Below are positions 7,750 to 45,089 of a DNA stretch of 64,000 bases, piece after piece. The notes beneath the pieces were generated by a model that saw only the letters and a list, made by a program, of their open reading frames with translations, did not search any database and was not told the origin of the DNA. A program made the translations under genes and the position numbers. Location of the stretch: assembly GCF_054482525.1 (NCBI RefSeq), contig NZ_CM137006.1; one strand, given 5' to 3'. The number at the start of each line of letters is the position of its first letter. The stretch's first letter is position 1.

Positions 7750-8376
7750 ATGACCAAACCGTATGTTCGTCTTGATAAAAATGATGCTGCCGTTTTGCTT
7801 GTTGATCACCAGGCTGGTTTACTTTCCCTTGTACGGGATATCGAACCCGATAAGTTTAAAAATAACGTGCTGGCGCTGGGCGACCTGGCTAAGTATTTCA
7901 ACTTACCTACTATTCTTACCACCAGTTTTGAAACCGGTCCTAACGGCCCATTAGTTCCAGAACTGAAAGCACAGTTTCCCGATGCACCTTACATTGCTCG
8001 CCCGGGAAATATTAACGCCTGGGATAACGAAGATTTTGTAAAAGCTGTCAAAGCGACAGGTAAAAAACAGTTAATTATTGCCGGTGTGGTAACCGAAGTT
8101 TGCGTGGCATTCCCGGCGCTTTCAGCCATTGAAGAAGGGTTTGACGTCTTTGTCGTGACTGACGCGTCAGGGACCTTTAATGAAATTACCCGGCATTCGG
8201 CATGGGATCGCATGTCGCAAGCTGGTGCGCAATTGATGACATGGTTCGGCGTGGCGTGCGAGCTGCATCGTGACTGGCGTAATGATATTGAAGGACTGGC
8301 GACGTTGTTCTCTAACCATATTCCTGATTATCGTAATTTGATGACCAGTTATGACACGTTAACGAAGCAGAAATAA
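7750..8376 (+). CDS. ycaC: Isochorismatase-family hydrolase YcaC (208 aa)
   Basis: MTKPYVRLDKNDAAVLLVDHQAGLL...; SD GAAAGGAGAAGAGG upstream. Confidence 0.88.
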   Translation: MTKPYVRLDKNDAAVLLVDHQAGLLSLVRDIEPDKFKNNVLALGDLAKYFNLPTILTTSFETGPNGPLVPELKAQFPDAPYIARPGNINAWDNEDFVKAVKATGKKQLIIAGVVTEVCVAFPALSAIEEGFDVFVVTDASGTFNEITRHSAWDRMSQAGAQLMTWFGVACELHRDWRNDIEGLATLFSNHIPDYRNLMTSYDTLTKQK

Positions 8377-8410
8377 AAGAGAACCGGGGCCGAAACCCCG
8401 GTTGTTATGA

Positions 8411-36622: not shown

Positions 36623-39469
36623 TCAGAAGGTCACATTCAGTGTGGCCTGACCGTTATACCCTTCAGCGCTGCTGCCGCTGACGCTGTGGGCATAACCGGC
36701 CTGAACGCCCAGGGTGATATTTTCCCGGACACGGGCTTCCAGTCCGGCCTGCAGGTCCAGTGACGTGCCATTCCGGGACGGTGAGAACGTCATGTTACTG
36801 CCGGCTGCGGCTGTACCCATGCTCATGTCTCCCCGGGAGCTGAAGGTGCGGATAACAGAAGGCTGTACCCACCAGTTCACAGGCAGTTCACTCACACCGT
36901 GTTTTGTACTGTCGCGCAGGGTGTCACGGGATGAGGTGCCTTCACCAAAGGTCATATCGTTGTGGCTGCCCAGACGGAAACCGGCACGCACATGTTGTGC
37001 ACTGCCATGCCCGAACTTCACATAACCGGCGTTATCCTGGCCGTCATCCAGGGAAAGTCCCTGCCAGGTATAGTGCAGTTGTGGCTCCAGCATCAGGTTG
37101 TCAGTGATACTGAAGGGCAGACCGGTTTCCAGTGAGCCCAGCCAGCCCCAGCCCCGGGCGCGGAAGTCGTTATTGTCCGATGACGCTTTCATGCTGTGGC
37201 GGGTTCCCTGTGCCACAATGTCAGCCCACAGGCCGGAGGACGTGTGTGTCAGATTCAGGTATCCGCCCAGGCTGCCGGCATCATCCCGGACCGTGCCGGC
37301 GCGGGAACCGTCATCATCCTTAACATCAACGGAAGAATGGCCTGCGGCACCATACACCCCTGTCGTCAGAGACATACCGGCAACCTCTGTTCTCAGCAGG
37401 TCACCCTCCAGACGGACGAAGCCATAGCTGCCGCTGCTTTCCGGCGTGGCTCCACGGGCAATACCGCCGTTGTTATCGTGACCGAGATGACCGCCCTGAA
37501 TGCTGAGACGGACGCTGTTATTTTCACCGTTTACACCGGTCTGATGGCTGCGGGAGCCTGCCAGAATCCGATCATGGTCCATTGCCTGTGTCAGCATGGA
37601 TGTATACAGGGGGACTTCAGCACGATAAGCATTTTCACTGCGCAGGTACCAGTCTTCATCGCTGTCACGGTTCAGGGTGTAGTTAAAGGCGCCGGCCTGA
37701 AGCGGGCGACTCAGGGCAAACGCACCTTCTTCTGTGGTGGCGCCATTCTGTGCATCCACAACCCGGATACCCTGTCCGGAGGTTGCCACCCCGAGGTTAC
37801 TGTTTCCGACATTTGTAAACGCAAGCCAGGTTTTGCCGGTTGCCTGACCACCATTAATCACCAGCTGGTCAGAGGTATTGCTGCCATCAAGGCGAACACG
37901 CATATTGATGGTGCCACCCTGACCGGTGAGGTTACTGGTGGTCAGTTTATGGAACGTTACCGGGGAGTCGCCTTTTGCAACAGCACGGCTCAGCGCGGCA
38001 TCCGGTGTCGTCTGATTATCAAAGCGAATCTCCCCTGCGTTAACAATATCGCCGGTACTGACCACATCGCCATTCAGTACCATGCTGGCACCTTTACTGA
38101 GCTGTGTTCTGCCACTCAGACTTCCCCCGGCAGCCAGCGTCAGTGTTCCACGATGTCCGACAGTGGTGTTGCTGGCCAGTCCTCCGGCATTAACCGTAAA
38201 GCTGCCGCCATTTTCCAGCAGCAGTCCGCTGGCCTGACCGGATGTGCCATCAATACTGAACTTACCGCTGGCATTGGTCCCCTCAACAGTGGCACCACTG
38301 TCTGCAATCAGGGCACTACCGGATGTCATGGTGACATCTGTTGCCTTACCACCGGCAGACACTGCCAGGGTTCCGCCGTCATCCACCCGTGTTTTCCAGG
38401 CTGAATGGCCCTCCAGTACATCCAGGCGACCACCGGACTCCAGAACAACACCGTCAGCATTACCGTTTTCCACAGTGAAATTGCCCAGACGGTTGCTGCC
38501 GGTGACGGTTGCCGCCGTACTGGTGACCAGTGCGCCTCCCTGCTTCAGCGTGACATTCGTGGCTGTACCACCGGCGTTCACCTGCAGTTTGCCTTTCTGG
38601 TTAACGGTGGTGAAATCCGCCAGACCACCTTCCTTGACAATCTGCCAGCCGTCACTGTTCACAACAGTGTCAGAGGCTGTACCGCCGTTGTGCACATACT
38701 GGTTACCGCCGTTCAGTGTGGTATCCAGCGCGTAGCCATGTACAGTCTGGTCGCCGCCGGCATAAACCACAGTGGTATTTGCTGTTCCTTCAGCAGCCAC
38801 AATCTGACGACCATTTTCATTGATAGTGGTACGTACGGCATTTCCGCGAACAAACTGCCCGGTATCACCATTTTCTGCATCCGGTCCCCCTTCCGCGCCG
38901 GTATTCACAACCGTGTCGGTTGCCACTGCGCCGGATTTGATGGCCTGCCAGCCCTTCTCATTAATGACGGTACCCGTTGCAATCCCGCCTTCATGTACCC
39001 ACTGCTCACCGCCGTTCAGAGTGGTATTCACTGCCTGCCCCTGAAGGCTCTGTCCGCCTCCGGCACTGATAACCGTGTCTGAAACGCTTCCTCCGGCATT
39101 CACTCTCTGAAGACCACCACCGGTGACAGTAGTGTTGTTGGCGATACCGCCATTTTGTATCCATTGTCCGCCGGTATTGGCCTCGTTATCCGGCCCATAC
39201 TCCAGACCGGTACTGATGGTCATTCCGTTGGCCGTACCGAAGACAATCTGGTTGTCATGATTTGTCAGTGTTCCGCCGCTCACGGTTTCTCCCGCCTGTA
39301 CGACCGTGTCAGCAGCCAGTACCGGGACTGACGTGACAGCAGCAAGAGACAGCGCAACCGCCACACCGGTGCGTTTTCCCCGTGAGCGCGCCAGTTCGGA
39401 AGCCACCACCAGGGTGCCCGTAATGTGATTCCATACCAGCCTGTAGCTGGTGTTCAGATGTCGTTTCAT
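36623..39469 (-). CDS. flu: Antigen 43 self-associating autotransporter adhesin (948 aa from MKRHLNTSYRLVWNH...)
   Basis: Extended signal peptide MKRHLNTSYRLVWNHITGTLVVASELARSR, GG-rich beta-helix passenger repeats, C-terminal beta-barrel ending ...NGQATLNVTF. Confidence 0.9.
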   Translation of the reverse strand: MKRHLNTSYRLVWNHITGTLVVASELARSRGKRTGVAVALSLAAVTSVPVLAADTVVQAGETVSGGTLTNHDNQIVFGTANGMTISTGLEYGPDNEANTGGQWIQNGGIANNTTVTGGGLQRVNAGGSVSDTVISAGGGQSLQGQAVNTTLNGGEQWVHEGGIATGTVINEKGWQAIKSGAVATDTVVNTGAEGGPDAENGDTGQFVRGNAVRTTINENGRQIVAAEGTANTTVVYAGGDQTVHGYALDTTLNGGNQYVHNGGTASDTVVNSDGWQIVKEGGLADFTTVNQKGKLQVNAGGTATNVTLKQGGALVTSTAATVTGSNRLGNFTVENGNADGVVLESGGRLDVLEGHSAWKTRVDDGGTLAVSAGGKATDVTMTSGSALIADSGATVEGTNASGKFSIDGTSGQASGLLLENGGSFTVNAGGLASNTTVGHRGTLTLAAGGSLSGRTQLSKGASMVLNGDVVSTGDIVNAGEIRFDNQTTPDAALSRAVAKGDSPVTFHKLTTSNLTGQGGTINMRVRLDGSNTSDQLVINGGQATGKTWLAFTNVGNSNLGVATSGQGIRVVDAQNGATTEEGAFALSRPLQAGAFNYTLNRDSDEDWYLRSENAYRAEVPLYTSMLTQAMDHDRILAGSRSHQTGVNGENNSVRLSIQGGHLGHDNNGGIARGATPESSGSYGFVRLEGDLLRTEVAGMSLTTGVYGAAGHSSVDVKDDDGSRAGTVRDDAGSLGGYLNLTHTSSGLWADIVAQGTRHSMKASSDNNDFRARGWGWLGSLETGLPFSITDNLMLEPQLHYTWQGLSLDDGQDNAGYVKFGHGSAQHVRAGFRLGSHNDMTFGEGTSSRDTLRDSTKHGVSELPVNWWVQPSVIRTFSSRGDMSMGTAAAGSNMTFSPSRNGTSLDLQAGLEARVRENITLGVQAGYAHSVSGSSAEGYNGQATLNVTF

Positions 39470-39686
39470 CAGCTTTTCCTTACAGAGGGTGAATAAAAAA
39501 GCCGGTACCCACAAATGTGGATACCGGCAGGTACAAAACAGCATGGTCAGATAAAGTGGTTTTTCCCGGACATAAATGCTTCCCCTCTCTCATCCGCCAG
39601 AGAAGTATCAGTCCGTTGTGTGCAATTCCGTTCTGCATGATGAAGAGATTCAGCTGCCTTTTCGCAGACCATTAACCACTATAAAC

Positions 39687-39722
39687 GATCGATAGCAACG
39701 ATCGATACCTGTTTTATCGATC
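39687..39722 (-). promoter_or_regulatory. agn43 phase-variation switch: three GATC Dam sites (39687, 39700, 39719) within the presumptive OxyR operator
   Basis: aaacGATCgatagcaacGATCgatacctgttttatcGATCg located upstream of flu; triple-GATC architecture is the established Dam/OxyR switch of agn43. Confidence 0.7.
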
Positions 39723-39840
39723 GTTTTATTCTATTAACGACAAGGCGGTCACGCAAGAGAAACAGGAGGAGTATGAGGGGTTTGTGTCATGTTTTCAGTT
39801 GGTTAACGTAATGTTATCAGGCATTTCCCTGGCAGACTGT

Positions 39841-40713
39841 TCAGAAGAAAATCCAGTTCCATACAGCGCGGGCAACAGAGACCACCGTGTCACGGACGGC
39901 ACGCAGAACCGTACGGGCAACAGAGGCAACACAGACGCTCTCCGCCGTGTCAAATATCCGGTCCACCGCACCGGTAAACTGTTCACGGGCCTGAGCGCGG
40001 ACAGATTCCGTGCGCAGCTCGTCCTGCAGGCGGGTCATCAGGGGACTGGCGGCATGGTCGGGAAGTGCTGTCATTAGCGCACTGACCAGCGTATCCAGTT
40101 CCCAGCCGGTGCGGGCCGATACGGCAACAACCGGATGTACGGGCCGGAACAGACGGAATACCGCCTCCGTTTTCTCCCGAATGTTCTGTGCCTGTGCGGG
40201 AGAAGGCTGAATGCCGGCCATATCCCATTCATGGCAGGGCTCCGTTTTGTCGGCCTGCGTCACCACAAACAGCACCTGCTGATGTCCCCGGTGCAGGATG
40301 TGTCGCCAGAAATACTCATCCACAGACAGGGCGCGGTCATCGGCTTTAATCAGCCACAGCACCAGGTCCAGTTCGGGCAGAATGTCACGGTACAGGGCTT
40401 CATACTCTGCATCCCTGTCCCGGCTCTCGCCCACCCCGGGCAGGTCAGTGATAACCATGCTGTGACCATGGCCACTCAGACGGAAGCGCCGTACTTCCCG
40501 GGTGCCGGCGTGAACATCACTGACCGGGGTGACCTCCCCCTGAAACAGTGCATTACAGAGTGAGGATTTACCGGCCCCGCTTTTACCCATAATGCCAATC
40601 ACGGGTTCGTGACTGGTGAGTTTGCGCAGATGTTCCAGGATGTGACGGGAAAGCGAGTAAGGCAGGGAGGAGAGCGGTTTTTCAATTGCCTCAATGGCAT
40701 CAGACGGATTCAT
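39841..40713 (-). CDS. yeeP: YeeP/YfjP/YkfA-family GTPase (about 290 aa)
   Basis: P-loop GIMGKSGAGKSSLCNALF, DLPGVGES G3-like motif; start taken at MNPSD within ORF 39841-40752. Confidence 0.75.
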   Translation of the reverse strand: MNPSDAIEAIEKPLSSLPYSLSRHILEHLRKLTSHEPVIGIMGKSGAGKSSLCNALFQGEVTPVSDVHAGTREVRRFRLSGHGHSMVITDLPGVGESRDRDAEYEALYRDILPELDLVLWLIKADDRALSVDEYFWRHILHRGHQQVLFVVTQADKTEPCHEWDMAGIQPSPAQAQNIREKTEAVFRLFRPVHPVVAVSARTGWELDTLVSALMTALPDHAASPLMTRLQDELRTESVRAQAREQFTGAVDRIFDTAESVCVASVARTVLRAVRDTVVSVARAVWNWIFF

Positions 40714-41286
40714 ACATGTATTCCCGGTGAAAAAAGACAAAACCCCGCGCACCGGAAAAGTGGCGGGGGACTCACGGAGATAATATCTGCCTAAAATTAT
40801 TTGGAATGCAGGTATATGCAGCTAATTTGTATCGGCTCATTAGTACAGAACTAAACCTCATCTGACAGTCCGCTCTGTGCCAGGAGCAGACATTGCCAAC
40901 GTTATGACCCTCGATTACATCAAAGAGCCCTATAGCCGAAACCTGCACCATAGCCATCTCTGTAGAATTCGTCCTAGGGGCTTTTAACAGACCTAGTTGT
41001 ATGGAGCGGAAGGAAATATTAAAGCTCAAGGCGTCAGTCCAGTGCTGTCCTGTTTGCTTACCACACGAAAGAGTGCTGCTTGTACCTGCTAACTAATGGT
41101 ATGCGGAGTGAGGGGGGCGGGTAGAACCAAAAGCACTTACTACGTGTGGCGCTCTCCTGGAAGAGGAGACGTCGAAGTGATAACGCTAACAACAGTCTTA
41201 CTGGTGATGCAAATAATGCTAGCTGGTCTGGTTGCCATCAAGCAACTGACTGGACGCCCGTAAGGGATGGAGGAACTTGATTAAAG

Positions 41287-41316
41287 GCAGGGGGGTTACC
41301 TCCCCTGCCTTTTTTC
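41287..41316 (+). terminator. Strong Rho-independent terminator (GGCAGGGG...CCCCTGCC + TTTTTT) ending a plus-strand transcript upstream of gene 41379
   Basis: 8-bp GC-rich stem with short loop followed by a T-run; plus-strand orientation only. Confidence 0.65.
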
Positions 41317-41378
41317 GTTTCTGCGCAAGTTAGCTCTGTTATTATAATCCTTACTCACACTGTAAGGACATAGTTCAA

Positions 41379-42062
41379 ATGACTGAATGGCTTAATGCAC
41401 ATTTTGGTGCAGACGCAGCTACCTATCTTAGCTTATTAGTCGGCGTACTGGCACTGTTTGGTATTGGGGGCGGTGTTACATATAGAATCAGACAGCAAAA
41501 CAACATAAAACAGAAGGCAAAGAAAACCGAGGGTGATGTGAACCAGGCCGGGCGGGATATTAATCAGACCACCAACGTTTACCACACATCCAATGAATCT
41601 ACTGAGGACCCTGTAAAAAAAAAGCAAGATGAACATGATCTGAAGATAATCGACCAGATCCTTGAATTGCTGCCTTATGAGGATACTACTCAATGGGTTG
41701 AGCAGAGCTACCTGAGCGGTATACGGCAAGATGTTTGCTTAAACATTGAAAAAGCTGAAAAATTTAGCGGTGAAAAGTATCGGTTATTCAATACTGAAGT
41801 GAATGGTGCGAAAGACGCTTTTTTGGACGCTATGACCGCATACGTAGATAGTACGCTACCATTTATGAGTGTTGATTACCCGAACAGAAAGCCAGTGATG
41901 CTAAGCCTTCCCCATGACTGGAAGAGTAAGAGTGTTGAATCGGAGGCAAACTTCCGCTTTCATCAGCAAAATGTGCGTGAAACATCGGGGGGGATGATTG
42001 CGCGCTATGAGGATTTTGTCAGGACATTTAAGGCTCATGGATTCATAAGCGATAAACTGTAA
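41379..42062 (+). CDS. Hypothetical N-terminally membrane-anchored protein (227 aa)
   Basis: ATG preceded by AAGGA and a TATAAT -10 box at 41343-41348; one predicted TM helix (YLSLLVGVLALFGIGGGV); own terminator downstream; no recognised domain. Confidence 0.6.
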   Translation: MTEWLNAHFGADAATYLSLLVGVLALFGIGGGVTYRIRQQNNIKQKAKKTEGDVNQAGRDINQTTNVYHTSNESTEDPVKKKQDEHDLKIIDQILELLPYEDTTQWVEQSYLSGIRQDVCLNIEKAEKFSGEKYRLFNTEVNGAKDAFLDAMTAYVDSTLPFMSVDYPNRKPVMLSLPHDWKSKSVESEANFRFHQQNVRETSGGMIARYEDFVRTFKAHGFISDKL

Positions 42063-42141
42063 AGGCGCAGTGGGTCAGCGAACACCGCAACGACAGAACC
42101 GCGTAAGCGGTAAAATCAGCTTGTTAACTGGCGAGTTTATA

Positions 42142-42166
42142 GCCGTCCCTCCGGGGCGGCTTTTTT
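42142..42166 (+). terminator. Rho-independent terminator after gene 41379-42062 (GCCGTCCCtccGGGGCGGC + TTTTTT)
   Basis: Hairpin followed by a T-run 80 bp after the stop codon. Confidence 0.6.
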
Positions 42167-42416
42167 ATGACTATAATCGACAGAATCACCTGAACGTCCA
42201 GGTGGGTTTCCCTGACAGGACGTCAAGGAATGTTCGCTTTGTGCCAGGAGCGGACGTTGCCAGCATTGAGTTTTCAGTTTTCAAAGGTATATCTTTAGAT
42301 TTAGTTCACTTAGAATGAGCGTGTTAAAGTTTTCGGTTATGTGAGTATATTGAACATAACAAATAAACAATAATTTTTGTATTCCATTTAAGATATAAAA
42401 AAGAGGGATTTGAGTT

Positions 42417-43202
42417 ATGTACGATTATAGTTTTTTACTTACTCCATCTACAGGATTTGTTAAAGGATTATGTGGAGTTTGGTCGAATGATTTCTCTATA
42501 AATGATGATTCTGACTCTGATTTAGGGCAAACAGATATTCATTTACTTTCATCTCCTCATTTGAATATCATATCCGACCCAAATGAATTGGCTTCCAAGT
42601 TAAAAGGTTTGTTGATGCTCATGAACGGCGCACTTAGCGTTCTTTATGGTTTTGAAAGATATCAATCTTTTGGTCCTCTTTCTATTTCTGGAAGTGAAGG
42701 CATTAATTACTCGGAAATATGCGGCTTTAAATCAATGGATGTAACTCAGGTAAATCCCTTTAATTTCCATGACATACAGCAACCACACCCTCGCGCTGAT
42801 AATTTTTCACGATTAATTAATTTATCATCTAAACATGAATCCTTACGTGTTGTTTTAGGTATGTGTGCCTTAGGTTATGATTGGGTTAATCTTTATCGTT
42901 TGTGGGAAACAATTAGAGAATATGTATATGATAAATATGTGAAAGGTATACTAAATTTTCCCGACGCTTATAAAGGCAAGAAATATCAGAGAGATAAAGT
43001 AATTAGCATGGCTTTTAATATTGATGAAAAGGAAATCAGCAGATTCACGGGCACTGCTAATAGCTTTGAACTGTTAGGGTATCTTGCGAGACATGGAAAG
43101 GGAAGTTCCGGAGGGATATTAAAAAATCCGATGTCAAGAGTTGACGCAAGCAATTTCGTACACAAAGCAACTTACAAATATTGTAAGTTATTTTTGATGT
43201 AA
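42417..43202 (+). CDS. Hypothetical protein (261 aa), strongly AT-rich gene of likely foreign origin
   Basis: Clean ORF preceded by AAGAGGGA RBS; codon usage and GC content far below the flanking DNA; no recognised domain. Confidence 0.6.
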   Translation: MYDYSFLLTPSTGFVKGLCGVWSNDFSINDDSDSDLGQTDIHLLSSPHLNIISDPNELASKLKGLLMLMNGALSVLYGFERYQSFGPLSISGSEGINYSEICGFKSMDVTQVNPFNFHDIQQPHPRADNFSRLINLSSKHESLRVVLGMCALGYDWVNLYRLWETIREYVYDKYVKGILNFPDAYKGKKYQRDKVISMAFNIDEKEISRFTGTANSFELLGYLARHGKGSSGGILKNPMSRVDASNFVHKATYKYCKLFLM

Positions 43203-43363: not shown

Positions 43364-44116
43364 TCATTTAGGAATAATAGAATGCAATTCGTGACTCACC
43401 TGGATTTCATAGTGTTTCAATAGTTCTCCGATGTTAATTCCTACTACCTTACGAACTGCGCCGAGGGAGAAGTTAAGCTCCTCAATGCCCGGCCGATCTG
43501 GCGTTGAATTCATATAGTGTCGGCACGCACGGACAATTGACTCGACGATCAACGATAGCGGAGACTCAGGTGCAATCTCGGAGCGAATCGCCGTAAGAGA
43601 GAGTCGGAGCTCCTTCAAAGAATCCGAGACTCGTGCTGGATCCTCTTGAGCATATGGCAGATAAAGAGAACTCTTGTCTTCCAATAAATGGATCACCCGC
43701 AGAGCAATTTTCTCGTCTGGGCGATGCGATAGAAATTGAAACATTAGCCTCTTTCCTCCCTCCAAGCACTCCTTCATTAGTGATTCGTGGTCACGTTTCC
43801 ATTTTCGCAAATACTCGGCGGGGTAGCCCATACCGCCATTCTTATCAACTAAATCAGCACAAGCTCCGCACAACCATATAGCATTTTTTATGCTCTTCCG
43901 CTCTGTTTCTGACTGAGACATGTCATAGCGCGGTCCGCCAGGGCTCGCCGCGCAGATATGCGCCGCCTCACCCGTCTTGATAGAAAGATTTTCCGCCAAT
44001 TGATCCGGGCCGATTGTTACCCTATGACAAGAGGGATTGCTACAAATATATGTAGCGCGCTCTGCTACCTTACCTACAACGCTTGGAGGAAAGTTGTGCC
44101 TATTTGTCTTGGTCAT
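43364..44116 (-). CDS. Hypothetical protein with N-terminal HNH-nuclease-like motif (250 aa)
   Basis: CSNPSCH ... EAAHICAASPGGPRY ... NAIWLCGACADLVD resembles the Cys-pair/His/Asn arrangement of HNH endonucleases; C-terminal domain unrecognised. Confidence 0.55.
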   Translation of the reverse strand: MTKTNRHNFPPSVVGKVAERATYICSNPSCHRVTIGPDQLAENLSIKTGEAAHICAASPGGPRYDMSQSETERKSIKNAIWLCGACADLVDKNGGMGYPAEYLRKWKRDHESLMKECLEGGKRLMFQFLSHRPDEKIALRVIHLLEDKSSLYLPYAQEDPARVSDSLKELRLSLTAIRSEIAPESPLSLIVESIVRACRHYMNSTPDRPGIEELNFSLGAVRKVVGINIGELLKHYEIQVSHELHSIIPK

Positions 44117-45089
44117 AAAAGTTATGCTTCTTTGTTTTTTTCATCTATGTGGGGAGAATAAAATCATACTTTTTATATCTGATCCTAGGTCTGACCAGCA
44201 ACCTATTGATCAAAAAACCAAGATATTAGCTAAAAAAAATCAGCATACTTGAGACCAAGCTCAATGTCCGCTCCTCGCTCAAAGCAGACCATTCGCTCAG
44301 TTAACGCATCAGTGTCGTGCTAAAAGTAGACGTGGTTAACAACAATGTGAGTTAATCAACGGAGAGCAGGTCAACTCTAACCTGTATCAAAAAAACAAAT
44401 GTGTCACAAAGATGCCGCATGCCTTAATTTGAGTATAATTGAGACGGAAGTAGACGGTTTATGGCTAAATATTGTTGATATATAGCTATTTGAAGAGTTG
44501 TAGCGCAAGTGTATAGCCCAAACTAATAACGCTACGCCCCTTACCTTTGACGCCTCTTATCAAAGAGCGGCGATGATGCACAGCCCGCACGAGGCAATAT
44601 TCGCACAAGAATCAGGTTCAGAAATAACCTGATCTGGCATGGTGGGGAGAGTATCACTGAGCAGGCTTTCGGTAAAATGCGGCGGGATGAGGTCGGCGTG
44701 GGTTGCAGCAGTACAATGTCGCCCGCAGAGGGTAAGCCACAGCGCGGGATCCTCGGTTTCTATCAGGGATTCGACGAAGTGGGCGCAGTTGTCGACCAAG
44801 GCGGTGAAATCCATAGTGACATTATAAGGAAACGAACAATAGATCGAGTAAATCGCAGTCAGGGACAAGGATTGTAGTCATAGAGAAGTCTCCTGTAACG
44901 GTTTTCAGGAAGCTAATCCCGACGCCTGATTTTGCAGGCGCGGAAGGAGAAGATACTGCGGCCATTAATCCGCCACAAGGCATTTACGTGCATAAATCGC
45001 GCAGTCAAATCCGACTCCCACTGTAGTTCTTGAACCTGATACCACATTTAGCTAATTTAGCTAACTTATCTATTATACCAGTGGTTGCC

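What the first reader, a model, noticed from the sequence alone, without database searches (positions are those of the whole stretch)
41093..41316. Orphan transcript end upstream of gene 41379: small hydrophobic ORF plus strong terminator (type I toxin or sRNA candidate)
The ~600-bp gap between yeeP and the next gene has no ORF of 60 aa or more on the plus strand, yet ends in a strong plus-strand intrinsic terminator (41287-41316). Just before it, a GTG at 41177 preceded by GAGGAG encodes a 28-aa peptide (V/MITLTTVLLVMQIMLAGLVAIKQLTGRP) that is essentially a single TM helix; an in-frame longer version (51 aa from GTG 41108) has a basic N-terminus. This looks like a small membrane peptide of the type I toxin kind, or a leader/sRNA.
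Basis: seen in the sequence. Interest (0 to 1): 0.5.

Follow-up and report, generated by a model that had tools for sequence, protein, structure and literature searches.

The report
Truncated dinQ-like toxin gene remnant
The small hydrophobic ORF and strong terminator are the 3' three-quarters of a dinQ-like (dql-type) type I toxin gene that has lost its promoter, the start of its leader and its antitoxin small RNA, and now rides at the front of a mobile prophage cargo cassette; it is probably a fossil.

Summary
SD GAGGAG, the GTG ORF at 41177-41263 and a -26.8 kcal/mol terminator at 41283-41316 are all there.

Window 41042-41314 matches positions 82-352 of 353 of a profile built from 10 intact loci on Pantoea, Erwinia, Serratia, Mixta, Klebsiella and IncT plasmids (E 2e-61). 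All 18 intact loci carry a 31-codon hydrophobic ORF, a structured leader of about 200 nt with a sequestered SD, and a divergent sRNA of about 96 nt. The 5' end of that sRNA is complementary to the leader 72-79 nt upstream of the GTG, and the two co-vary in at least five specificity variants.

A covariance model of the leader finds the validated dqlB leader of pOXA-48 (E about 5e-7), and Rfam AgrB nearly reaches two of the sRNAs. The family is therefore a divergent branch of the known dinQ/dql-agrB type I toxin-antitoxin superfamily.

The window copy lacks the promoter, the first ~80 leader positions and the sRNA gene. It also has an in-frame 9-nt deletion, giving 28 aa. The same truncated copy travels with a 227-aa gene in P2-like and other prophages and CP4-like islands.

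Most likely it is an inactive remnant whose terminator now precedes the cargo gene's promoter. A co-opted orphan peptide is not excluded.

The parts
40858..40890 (+). Repeat core (CTGACAGTCCGCTCTGTGCCAGGAGCAGACATT) marking the left end of the mobile cassette. It is homologous to the 'left inverted repeat' of the P2 Z-region.
   Evidence: window 40841-40906 matches P2-like phages and the annotated left inverted repeat of AJ512680.1; a direct copy lies near 42230-42262 and an inverted copy near 44262-44290.
40891..41041 (+). Cassette-specific spacer with no homologue outside the cassette. It holds the best -10-like hexamer (TAGAAT 40963-40968, no -35), which would give a 5' UTR of about 202 nt if it were used.
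   Evidence: no similarity to any family locus; no other E. coli or plasmid matches; no plus-strand promoter passes the scan; conserved in all cassette copies.
41042..41176 (+). Truncated 5' UTR of the dql-type toxin mRNA. Only the 3' arm of the conserved 5' hairpin remains.
   Evidence: nhmmer places 41042-41314 at profile positions 82-352 of 353, E 2e-61; the leader covariance model scores 77.5 bits, with mismatched pairs flagged in the first hairpin..
41073..41094 (+). Antitoxin-target box GTGCTGCTTGTACCTGCTAACT, identical to the 'group B' box that pairs with the 5' end of the divergent sRNA in intact loci.
   Evidence: 10-25 nt of repeat/complementarity in 18 of 18 intact loci, co-varying between groups; single copy in the window; group-B sRNA duplex of -49.7 kcal/mol against -27.3 +/- 3.6 for shuffled sequences.
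41152..41168 (+). SD-sequestering hairpin: anti-SD CTCTCC (41152-41157), loop TGGAA, SD GAGGAG (41163-41168).
   Evidence: fold; the hairpin is conserved in the family consensus structure. In the IncT copy the arms are CTCTCC/GGAGAG.
41177..41263 (+). GTG-start ORF of 28 aa, a single hydrophobic helix with a basic C-terminal KQLTGRP. It is 31 aa in every intact relative. The 9-nt in-frame deletion junction lies between 41230 and 41231.
   Evidence: 31 aa in 13 of 13 intact loci; variable sites by codon position 22/9/21, pN/pS 0.56; cassette copies L041 and L042 have the undeleted 31-codon form; profile search finds 11 related peptides.
41272..41280 (+). Invariant 3' UTR block GGAACTTGA, homologous to GGAAACGTAA in dinQ and dqlB.
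   Evidence: invariant in the family; aligned with dinQ and dqlB.
41283..41318 (+). Intrinsic terminator of the toxin mRNA: 13-bp stem, loop TTAC, T-run. Family homology ends near 41327.
   Evidence: conserved terminator hairpin in the family consensus structure. IS insertions inside it in RS571 and L037.
41337..41348 (+). Promoter-like -10 region (TGtTATTAT / TATAAT) of the downstream 227-aa gene, immediately after the terminator. Context, not part of the toxin gene.
   Evidence: Read from the sequence. It did not pass the two-hexamer scan. Conserved in cassette copies.
41379..42062 (+). 227-aa hypothetical protein with an N-terminal hydrophobic segment. It is the cargo gene that always accompanies the remnant.
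   Evidence: present in every cassette copy; no PADLOC or Pfam match.

Best explanation
Window 41042-41327 is the 3' portion of a type I toxin gene from a divergent branch of the dinQ/dql-agrB superfamily.

Intact relatives have two divergent transcription units:
- A toxin mRNA of about 330-360 nt. It has a -10 (TATACT or TATAAT) and a 185-214 nt structured leader. The leader begins with a hairpin whose loop is GGTGGTGC. This is followed by an antitoxin-target box, an SD-sequestering hairpin, a GTG-start 31-aa hydrophobic peptide and an intrinsic terminator.
- An upstream sRNA of about 96 nt, transcribed the other way, whose first ~20 nt are complementary to the target box.

The mechanism is inferred by analogy with dinQ/agrB and dqlB/agrB. 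The primary transcript is translationally closed. 5' processing opens it. The sRNA pairs with the leader, re-closes the SD and triggers RNase III cleavage. When the plasmid is lost, the unstable sRNA decays and the membrane peptide kills or arrests the cell.

The window copy keeps the target box, the SD hairpin, the ORF and the terminator. It has lost the promoter, the first ~80 leader positions including the 5' arm of the hairpin, and the whole sRNA gene. The ORF also has an in-frame 9-nt deletion.

The copy sits at the 5' end of a mobile cassette: repeat core, 150-nt spacer, remnant, then the 227-aa gene. That cassette is found in the P2 Z-region hotspot, at the ends of other prophages and in CP4-like islands.

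The 'orphan' terminator is therefore simply the toxin gene's own terminator. Today it most likely does nothing, or only shields the cargo gene's promoter from upstream read-through.

Shown: homology, truncation point, absence of the sRNA, family architecture and co-variation. Inferred: toxicity, the regulatory mechanism and present inactivity.
For: Identity of the window element:
- nhmmer places window 41042-41314 at toxin-mRNA profile positions 82-352 of 353, E 2e-61. All 12 cassette copies start at position 82 or 83.
- The 150 nt upstream have no similarity to any family locus.

Family architecture:
- The 31-aa ORF is present in 13 of 13 intact loci. Codon position 2 is the least variable and pN/pS is 0.56.
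- RNAalifold predicts 78 pairs, 18 of them with compensatory changes. These include the 5' hairpin, the SD hairpin and the terminator.
- The divergent sRNA has a sigma-70-like promoter (TTGACN, 16-18 nt, TAnnnT) that places its start at the complementarity, and it has its own terminator.
- A repeat giving 10-25 nt of complementarity ends 72-79 nt upstream of the GTG in 18 of 18 loci. Cognate identity is 21.8 of 24 against 14.9 of 24 for non-cognate pairs, and 0 of 10,000 permutations reach the cognate mean. Cross-group duplexes are 15-30 kcal/mol weaker.

Link to the known superfamily:
- The leader covariance model R1, built only from this family, hits the pOXA-48 dqlB leader end to end. The match stops exactly at the dqlB ATG (26.7 bits, E about 5e-7).
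- Rfam AgrB matches the predicted sRNAs of L046 and L044 over the full model at 36.2 and 35.4 bits; the gathering score is 40.
- dinQ, dqlB and this family share landmarks along the whole mRNA.
- dqlB-agrB is an experimentally validated addiction module (PMC12365149, PMC12317039). The dql family was defined in PMC5066626.

Missing parts in E. coli:
- No sRNA gene in the window or in any cassette locus.
- No homologue of the sRNA/promoter region in 5,426 E. coli genomes.
- Chromosomal AgrA and AgrB do not pair with the window leader above background.
- No plus-strand promoter passes the scan.
- The 9-nt deletion is later than the truncation.
Against: - No expression data exist, so 'inactive' is an inference. 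A reasonable -10 (TAGAAT 40963-40968) lies at the right distance, although it has no -35.
- The ORF is open in all 12 cassette copies, and its substitutions are 4 synonymous to 1 conservative (A to V). This hints at purifying selection, roughly P = 0.02 by a rough binomial estimate that assumes about 28% synonymous sites. The copies differ by only 4-7% everywhere, so the power is low.
- The deletion is in frame.
- The peptides do not match the NCBIfam DinQ or DqlB models, and nhmmer finds nothing in the K-12 dinQ locus. The superfamily link therefore rests on the covariance-model hit, a sub-threshold Rfam hit and shared landmarks.
- Toxicity of this branch has never been tested.
Confidence: 0.78

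Rival explanations
1. Co-opted orphan peptide. The truncated gene is still expressed, either from a weak cassette promoter (for example the TAGAAT at 40963-40968) or by read-through from prophage late genes. The 28/31-aa membrane peptide then works as part of the cassette, for instance as a membrane-damaging effector acting with the 227-aa membrane protein in lysogenic conversion or abortive infection.
For: - The remnant is retained, with an open ORF and an intact SD, in all 12 cassette copies. These come from E. coli, Proteus vulgaris and an unidentified host, in at least four insertion contexts.
- ORF substitutions are 4 synonymous to 1 conservative.
- The deletion is in frame, and undeleted 31-codon copies exist in the same cassette.
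- The cassette sits in a known cargo and defence hotspot, the P2 Z-region, next to an HNH-type defence candidate.
- For dinQ, removal of the 5' end activates translation (PMC5066626).
Against: - No promoter passes the scan.
- No antitoxin is present to keep a toxin in check.
- Overall divergence among the copies is only 4-7%, in coding and non-coding parts alike. Survival of an 87-nt ORF is therefore expected by chance.
- IS elements have inserted into the terminator in two copies, apparently without loss of the cassette.
Confidence: 0.17
2. RNA decoy. The remnant is transcribed as a non-coding RNA whose intact target box (41073-41094) titrates the AgrB-like antitoxin of incoming plasmids that carry a group-B locus. 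This unleashes their toxin and so excludes those plasmids.
For: - The target box is identical to the group-B box and is predicted to bind group-B sRNAs at -47 to -56 kcal/mol.
- The cassette lies in a defence hotspot.
Against: - No promoter.
- Two cassette lineages (RS571/strain 144/L034 and L042) carry substitutions inside the box, so the box is not under visible constraint.
- Group-B plasmids are rare (31 of 72,556 plasmid records), and only one of those records is from the genus Escherichia.
Confidence: 0.03
3. Leader peptide plus attenuator. The small ORF and terminator form a cis-regulatory leader that controls transcription into the 227-aa gene at 41379.
For: - The terminator ends 63 nt upstream of the gene's ATG, on the same strand.
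- The two always occur together in E. coli.
Against: - The same element, with its terminator, occurs on plasmids and chromosomes followed by unrelated genes. These are often convergent or on the other strand.
- Family homology ends about 10 nt after the T-run.
- A separate -10-like sequence follows the terminator.
- No alternative anti-terminator pairing appears in the family consensus structure.
Confidence: 0.02
4. Single-stranded-DNA promoter or initiation signal (Frpo/ssi type) from a conjugative-plasmid leading region, captured by the island.
For: - Plasmid homologues lie near psiA, anti-restriction and methylase genes.
- The region folds as ssDNA better than shuffled sequences on both strands (z = -4.7 and -5.0).
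Against: [quoted passage not shown]
- The fold is explained by the mRNA structure.
- The element holds a conserved ORF under codon-level constraint and comes with a co-varying partner sRNA.
- It also occurs in core chromosomal intergenic regions.
Confidence: 0.01

Closest known systems
DqlB-AgrB (dinQ-like B) type I toxin-antitoxin of plasmids such as pOXA-48 (IncL) and pOXA-484 (IncX3). The dql family was defined by Kristiansen et al. 2016 (PMC5066626) and validated as an addiction module in PMC12365149 and PMC12317039.
   Same: - Divergent, non-overlapping sRNA whose 5' end pairs with the toxin leader.
- Leader hairpin with loop (A)CAGGTGGTGCTGT.
- SD-sequestering hairpin.
- 31-codon hydrophobic ORF beginning MI/VI.
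- GGAAC-type 3' UTR block followed by a G-rich terminator.
- TATACT -10.
- Plasmid location.
- A covariance model built only from this family aligns to the whole dqlB leader, up to its ATG. See also the alignment.
   Different: - The peptides differ: MITLGTILLVLQILLTGVELIVAIKQLTGRP against MINLLIVVLRAVVAVSNAVIAVLELIRQYFD. The NCBIfam DqlB model gives no hit.
- The target boxes differ.
- nhmmer similarity is limited to the 3' end and the sRNA terminator region.
- This branch is rare (31 of 72,556 plasmid records). It is centred on Erwiniaceae, Serratia, Klebsiella and IncT plasmids rather than IncL/M, IncI1 or IncX.
- I could not check whether it equals the published 'dqlA' group; that figure and supplement are not held.
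dinQ-agrA/agrB of E. coli K-12 (arsR-gor intergenic region)
   Same: - Same locus plan and the same landmarks along the mRNA.
- Peptide starts VI.
- The sRNA architecture (5' pairing region, internal hairpin with an ACCAAC-type loop, terminator) is close enough that Rfam AgrB scores two family sRNAs at 35-36 bits.
- The mechanistic model is taken from this system: closed +1 mRNA, open +44 mRNA, AgrB re-closing and RNase III cleavage.
   Different: - No nhmmer hit to the K-12 locus.
- The covariance model finds only the hairpin loop, at 8.9 bits.
- DinQ is 27 aa with an ELIRFLLQLLN tail.
- dinQ is preceded by a LexA-box-like sequence (TACTGTATGATTATCCAGTTA, read in the output; its LexA regulation is from memory), and none was seen in the family promoters.
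- AgrA and AgrB do not pair with the window leader.
tisB/istR-1, zorO/orzO and shoB/ohsC (other Gram-negative type I systems with an upstream, non-overlapping antitoxin sRNA)
   Same: They belong to the same organisational class as listed in T1TAdb (PMC8594479). That class has the asRNA 5' of the mRNA without overlap, an interaction of at least 15 nt in the 5' UTR, a small hydrophobic toxin of 26-31 aa and a sequestered ribosome-binding site.
   Different: - No sequence or profile relationship.
- No Rfam istR, OrzO-P or OhsC match above noise.
- No Pfam or NCBIfam hit.
- blastn of the window element against 5,426 E. coli genomes finds only the 31 cassette copies.
Remnant ('half') type I loci, such as the antitoxin-only orz loci of E. 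coli MG1655 (PMC11264685)
   Same: A type I locus reduced to one partner and left in the chromosome.
   Different: Here the toxin half survives, 5'-truncated and without an antitoxin. It is carried on a mobile cassette rather than at a fixed chromosomal site.

Membership tests
Type I toxin-antitoxin with a divergent trans-acting sRNA (generic class) | Small (20-60 aa) hydrophobic single-helix ORF with its own SD | tested here: met
   The window ORF is 28 aa. It is 31 aa in 13 of 13 intact relatives, with codon-level constraint. The SD is GAGGAG, 8 nt before the GTG.
Type I toxin-antitoxin with a divergent trans-acting sRNA (generic class) | Cognate antisense sRNA gene with at least 15 nt of complementarity to the toxin mRNA | tested here: not met
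   For the window, no sRNA gene was found in the 64 kb, in any cassette locus or in E. coli genomes. For the family, the feature is met in 18 of 18 intact loci, with co-variation.
Type I toxin-antitoxin with a divergent trans-acting sRNA (generic class) | Own promoter and intrinsic terminator delimiting an mRNA of 150-400 nt | tested here: inconclusive
   The terminator is present and strong. The family promoter region is absent and no consensus promoter is found upstream. Only a lone TAGAAT remains.
Type I toxin-antitoxin with a divergent trans-acting sRNA (generic class) | Toxicity of the peptide on over-expression and rescue by the sRNA | not testable with these tools
   This needs an induction experiment. 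It has been done only for the related DqlB (PMC12365149, PMC12317039).
dinQ/dql-agrB superfamily | Conserved 5' UTR scaffold: hairpin with GGTGGTGC loop, target box just downstream, SD stem-loop | tested here: met
   For the family, covariance model R1 hits the pOXA-48 dqlB leader over positions 1-156 of 156, ending at the ATG (26.7 bits, E about 5e-7). The window keeps only the loop and 3' arm of the hairpin; the rest of the scaffold is intact (77.5 bits).
dinQ/dql-agrB superfamily | AgrB-type antitoxin RNA (Rfam RF02891) | tested here: inconclusive
   L046 scores 36.2 bits and L044 35.4 bits over the full model; the gathering score is 40. Other family sRNAs are not detected. The validated pOXA-48 agrB is not detected either, so the model is narrow. 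There is nothing to test in the window.
dinQ/dql-agrB superfamily | Peptide matches the curated DinQ (NF041472) or DqlB (NF041473) models | tested here: not met
   No hit, even at E up to 10, for six family peptides, while DinQ itself scores 54 bits. This makes it a separate peptide subgroup.
dinQ/dql-agrB superfamily | Identity with the published dqlA subgroup | not testable with these tools
   Fig. 3B and the supplement of PMC5066626 are not held.
Hok/Sok, Ldr, Ibs, TisB, ShoB, Zor families | Profile match of the peptide (Pfam/NCBIfam) or of the RNA (Rfam) | tested here: not met
   Searches gave nothing beyond noise.
Frpo/ssi single-stranded DNA promoters of plasmid leading regions | Sequence similarity to known Frpo/ssi elements; a hairpin carrying -35/-10 mimics | tested here: not met
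   blastn (word size 7) and nhmmer against 11 of the published sequences gave only chance matches.
Leader-peptide transcription attenuator | Fixed linkage to the regulated downstream gene, with alternative terminator/anti-terminator pairing | tested here: not met
   The element occurs with unrelated or convergent neighbours. No alternative pairing appears in the consensus structure.

The most novel reading that the evidence does not exclude
The promoter-less, antitoxin-less toxin fragment is kept because its RNA still carries an intact antitoxin-target box. Transcribed by read-through in a prophage or island defence hotspot, it would act as a decoy. The decoy would soak up the AgrB-like antitoxin of an incoming plasmid of the same specificity group and so trigger that plasmid's own toxin. 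This would be an anti-plasmid exclusion device built from half of a type I toxin-antitoxin locus. A milder variant is that the orphan 28/31-aa peptide itself is the effector of the two-gene cassette.
Probability: 0.04. Interest if true: 0.8.

Novelty: new member of a known kind. Interest (0 to 1): 0.32.

Why it matters
For this window it matters little. An unexplained 'orphan' terminator and mini-ORF turn out to be a gene fragment, and the region can be annotated as such.

The by-product is more useful. It is an unannotated, divergent branch of the dinQ/dql-agrB type I toxin-antitoxin superfamily.
- It has a distinct 31-aa peptide ending in KQLTGRP.
- It has at least five co-varying sRNA/target specificity variants.
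- It is present on IncT (Rts1-type), Pantoea, Erwinia, Serratia and Klebsiella plasmids, and in some chromosomal intergenic regions.

Plasmid dql systems were only validated as addiction modules in 2025, and the same studies note that they are often missed by annotation. This branch extends that blind spot.

The natural set of matched and mismatched sRNA/target pairs is ready-made material for studying antitoxin specificity.

The remnant also shows that type I toxin halves can hitch-hike on cargo cassettes that move between P2-like prophages, other prophages and CP4-type islands.

Tried and rejected
1. Frpo/ssi ssDNA promoter. This was my first idea after plasmid hits near psiA and strong ssDNA folds. 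I rejected it because there is no similarity to the published Frpo/ssi set, and a conserved ORF and partner sRNA were found instead.

2. Known RNA families. Rfam at permissive thresholds finds nothing at the window element or in the Serratia locus. The only near-hit is the sub-threshold AgrB match in two loci.

3. Known peptide families.

4. A 'wholly new type I family'. I held this view until and then revised it to a divergent dinQ/dql branch.

5. The longer 51/55-aa ORF. It is not conserved. Database entries with long N-termini are mis-started gene calls, all named 'hypothetical protein'.

6. An overlapping antisense promoter on the minus strand. None was found, and the family's antitoxin is divergent rather than overlapping.

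7. An antitoxin elsewhere.
   - There is no second copy of the box in the window.
   - There is no sRNA homologue in 5,426 E. coli genomes, although a bare 22-nt match would be below blastn sensitivity.
   - Chromosomal AgrA and AgrB do not pair with the window leader.

8. Selection tests on the cassette copies. There is too little divergence to decide.

9. Literature.
   - A search for the peptide motif found nothing.
   - The supplements of Fozo 2010 and Kristiansen 2016 are not held.
   - A search for 'DqlA' returned only unrelated papers in the 10 of 20 listed.
Full report
**Setting.** The window is an E. coli CP4-44-type island. It carries Ag43 (36623-39544, minus strand), an IS102/isrC sRNA (Rfam, 73 bits) and a yeeP-like GTPase gene (39841-40752, minus strand). 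The finding lies in the 626-bp gap between yeeP and a 227-aa hypothetical gene at 41379.

**Observation.** All stated features are present.
- No plus-strand ORF in the gap reaches 60 aa.
- GAGGAG (41163-41168) precedes GTG 41177, which opens a 28-codon hydrophobic ORF ending at TAA 41261-41263.
- The best terminator-like site of the region is at 41283-41312: 13 bp, 8 G-C pairs and a T6 tail. Its RNA fold is -26.8 kcal/mol with z = -6.3.
- Rfam has nothing for it.

**Distribution in E. coli.**
- The yeeP-proximal 130-150 bp occur in 4,239 of 5,426 complete genomes.
- The segment 41060-41378 occurs in only 31 genomes. In every copy inspected it is followed by the 227-aa gene. One of these, RS571, is interrupted by IS421.
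- The unit is mobile. It sits next to different yeeP-like genes in CP4-type islands (AH62, SE11, RS571, strain 144).
- It also lies between tail-fibre-assembly gene G and sheath gene FI of a P2-like prophage (cM2a; four IMG/VR P2-like contigs).
- It is found at a prophage end next to the icd fragment.
- It is found in a Proteus vulgaris prophage, and beside nrdDG in an unidentified host.
- Its left edge is a repeat core homologous to the annotated 'left inverted repeat' of the P2 Z-region.

**Relatives elsewhere.** blastn against plasmids matched window 41042-41326 at 67-78% identity. The hosts were conjugative or mobilisable plasmids of Erwinia, Pantoea, Serratia, Mixta, Klebsiella and IncT Providencia/Proteus. 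Some matches lie near psiA and anti-restriction genes, so I first tested a single-stranded DNA promoter (Frpo/ssi). The region folds well as ssDNA. However, it has no similarity to the published Frpo/ssi sequences.

**What the alignments showed instead**.
- The GTG ORF is conserved as exactly 31 codons in every intact locus.
- Codon position 2 varies least (22/9/21 variable sites) and pN/pS is 0.56.
- The SD and terminator are conserved.
- About 140 nt of leader are conserved.
- The longer in-frame extensions are not conserved.

**The partner sRNA.**
- Extending the alignments upstream revealed a conserved, divergently oriented unit. It has a sigma-70-like promoter (TTGACN, 16-18 nt, TAnnnT), about 96 nt of RNA and its own terminator.
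- Its first ~20 nt are the reverse complement of a leader box 72-79 nt upstream of the GTG.
- The box and the sRNA 5' end differ between lineages but match within each locus. There are at least five variants among 18 loci.
- Cognate identity is 21.8 of 24 against 14.9 of 24 for non-cognate pairs, and 0 of 10,000 permutations reach the cognate mean.
- Cross-group duplexes are much weaker.
- RNAalifold on the mRNAs gives 78 pairs, 18 with compensatory changes. These include a 5' hairpin, a hairpin that sequesters the SD, and the terminator.
- Chromosomal copies exist as well: Sodalis ligni feoA-tex, and malQ-nfuA in metagenomic Enterobacterales.
- This is the architecture of a type I toxin-antitoxin locus with a non-overlapping upstream antitoxin (class definition in PMC8594479).

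**Which family.**
- Pfam, NCBIfam and PHROGs do not recognise the peptide.
- All database entries for it are mis-started 'hypothetical proteins'.
- Rfam AgrB, the antitoxin of DinQ, matches the predicted sRNAs of two chromosomal loci over the full model, on the right strand and at the right coordinates. The scores are 36.2 and 35.4 bits, just below the gathering score of 40.
- That model also misses the experimentally validated agrB of pOXA-48.
- Aligning K-12 dinQ, pOXA-48 dqlB and this family shows common landmarks from the leader hairpin (loop CAGGTGGTGCTGT) to the 3' UTR block and terminator.
- A covariance model built only from this family's leader finds the dqlB leader end to end, stopping at its ATG (26.7 bits, E about 5e-7).
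- The peptides differ from DinQ and DqlB, and the curated models do not hit them.
- I therefore place the family as a divergent branch of the dinQ/dql-agrB superfamily (defined in PMC5066626; DqlB-agrB validated as a plasmid addiction module in PMC12365149 and PMC12317039).
- I could not check whether it is the published 'dqlA' group.

**The window copy.**
- nhmmer aligns 41042-41314 to profile positions 82-352 of 353 (E 2e-61). All twelve cassette copies start at position 82 or 83.
- The breakpoint falls in the loop of the 5' hairpin.
- The 150 bp upstream are unrelated to any family locus.
- No plus-strand promoter passes the scan. The best lone -10-like hexamer is TAGAAT at 40963-40968.
- No sRNA gene is present in the window, in the cassette loci or in E. 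coli genomes. E. coli's own AgrA and AgrB do not pair with this leader.
- The E. coli copies share a 9-nt in-frame deletion, giving 28 aa. Proteus and one other host carry the same truncated cassette with the full 31 codons, so truncation came first.
- Among cassette copies the ORF has 4 synonymous changes and 1 conservative change. All parts of the cassette differ by only 4-7%, so this is weak evidence.

**Conclusion.** The element is the 3' three-quarters of a dql-type toxin gene, carried as a passenger at the head of a mobile cargo cassette. Its terminator is 'orphan' because the promoter end of the gene is gone. It is most likely inactive. At most, the terminator insulates the promoter-like -10 region (41337-41348) of the 227-aa gene. 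A still-expressed orphan peptide, or an RNA decoy for plasmid antitoxins, cannot be excluded without transcript mapping.

Noticed in passing
window 40858-40890, 42230-42262 (direct copy), about 44262-44290 (inverted copy): Three copies of a ~33-nt repeat core related to the left and right inverted repeats of the P2 Z-region. They delimit two adjacent cargo cassettes inside the CP4-44-like island. Cassette 1 holds the toxin remnant and the 227-aa gene. Cassette 2 holds a 261-aa gene and a 250-aa gene. The same core lies within the stretch upstream of yeeP-like genes that matches in about 4,200 E. coli genomes, which suggests a shared recombination site between P2-like phages and these islands.
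   Followed up: partly
window 43364-44116 (-): The 250-aa protein of cassette 2 matches HNH-endonuclease defence candidates in PADLOC (PDC-M68A, E 6.6e-24; also SAVED-HNH effectors). The 261-aa protein (42417-43202) and the 227-aa protein (41379-42062) match nothing in PADLOC, and the 227-aa protein matches nothing in Pfam. They may be uncharacterised lysogenic-conversion or defence genes.
   Followed up: partly
window 39488-39724 (-): IS102/isrC sRNA (Rfam RF00124, 73.4 bits) lies between yeeP and the Ag43 gene, as in K-12 CP4-44. This is a known feature.
   Followed up: no
L002 (RS571) about 5244; L037 (IMG/VR P2-like contig) about 8194: In two independent cassette copies an IS has inserted inside the G-rich terminator hairpin (GGGGGGTTACCTCCCC). 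It is annotated as IS421 in RS571. In L037 the inserted sequence is unidentified and the IS is only inferred. The hairpin looks like an insertion hotspot for this IS4-family element.
   Followed up: no
L041 3893-3940: One cassette copy carries an extra 40 nt just upstream of the remnant, flanked by the 9-nt direct repeat GTCAGTCCA. Either the other copies lost it by repeat-mediated deletion, or this copy gained a duplication. With it, the covariance model pairs the first hairpin without flagged mismatches.
   Followed up: partly
L014 (Pantoea formicae) compared with L006 (Erwinia billingiae) and L008/L013: The family is mosaic. P. formicae combines a group-A leader and sRNA with an ORF of the Erwinia billingiae (group-B) type. 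This implies recombination between the regulatory and coding halves of the locus.
   Followed up: no
Intact family loci, between the divergent promoters (for example L019, L006, L008): A conserved palindrome TTGAC-N6-GTCAA overlaps the -35 of the sRNA promoter. It could be an operator for an unknown regulator. No LexA box like that of dinQ was seen.
   Followed up: no
L052 (pOXA-48) 8330-8400; L050 (K-12) 1564-1878: The Rfam AgrB model (RF02891) scores K-12 agrA and agrB at 106-108 bits. It does not detect the experimentally validated agrB of pOXA-48 at all, so the model is too narrow to annotate plasmid dql antitoxins.
   Followed up: partly
L043 (Sodalis ligni, feoA-tex intergenic); L044-L047 (malQ-nfuA intergenic): Intact copies of the toxin/sRNA pair sit in core-genome intergenic regions of some Enterobacterales, so the family is not plasmid-only. 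L046 also has a second partial sRNA-like match just downstream of the toxin terminator (1761-1817).
   Followed up: partly
window 42141-42161 (+): A second strong plus-strand terminator (9 bp, 7 G-C pairs) closes the 227-aa gene, just before the internal repeat core.
   Followed up: no
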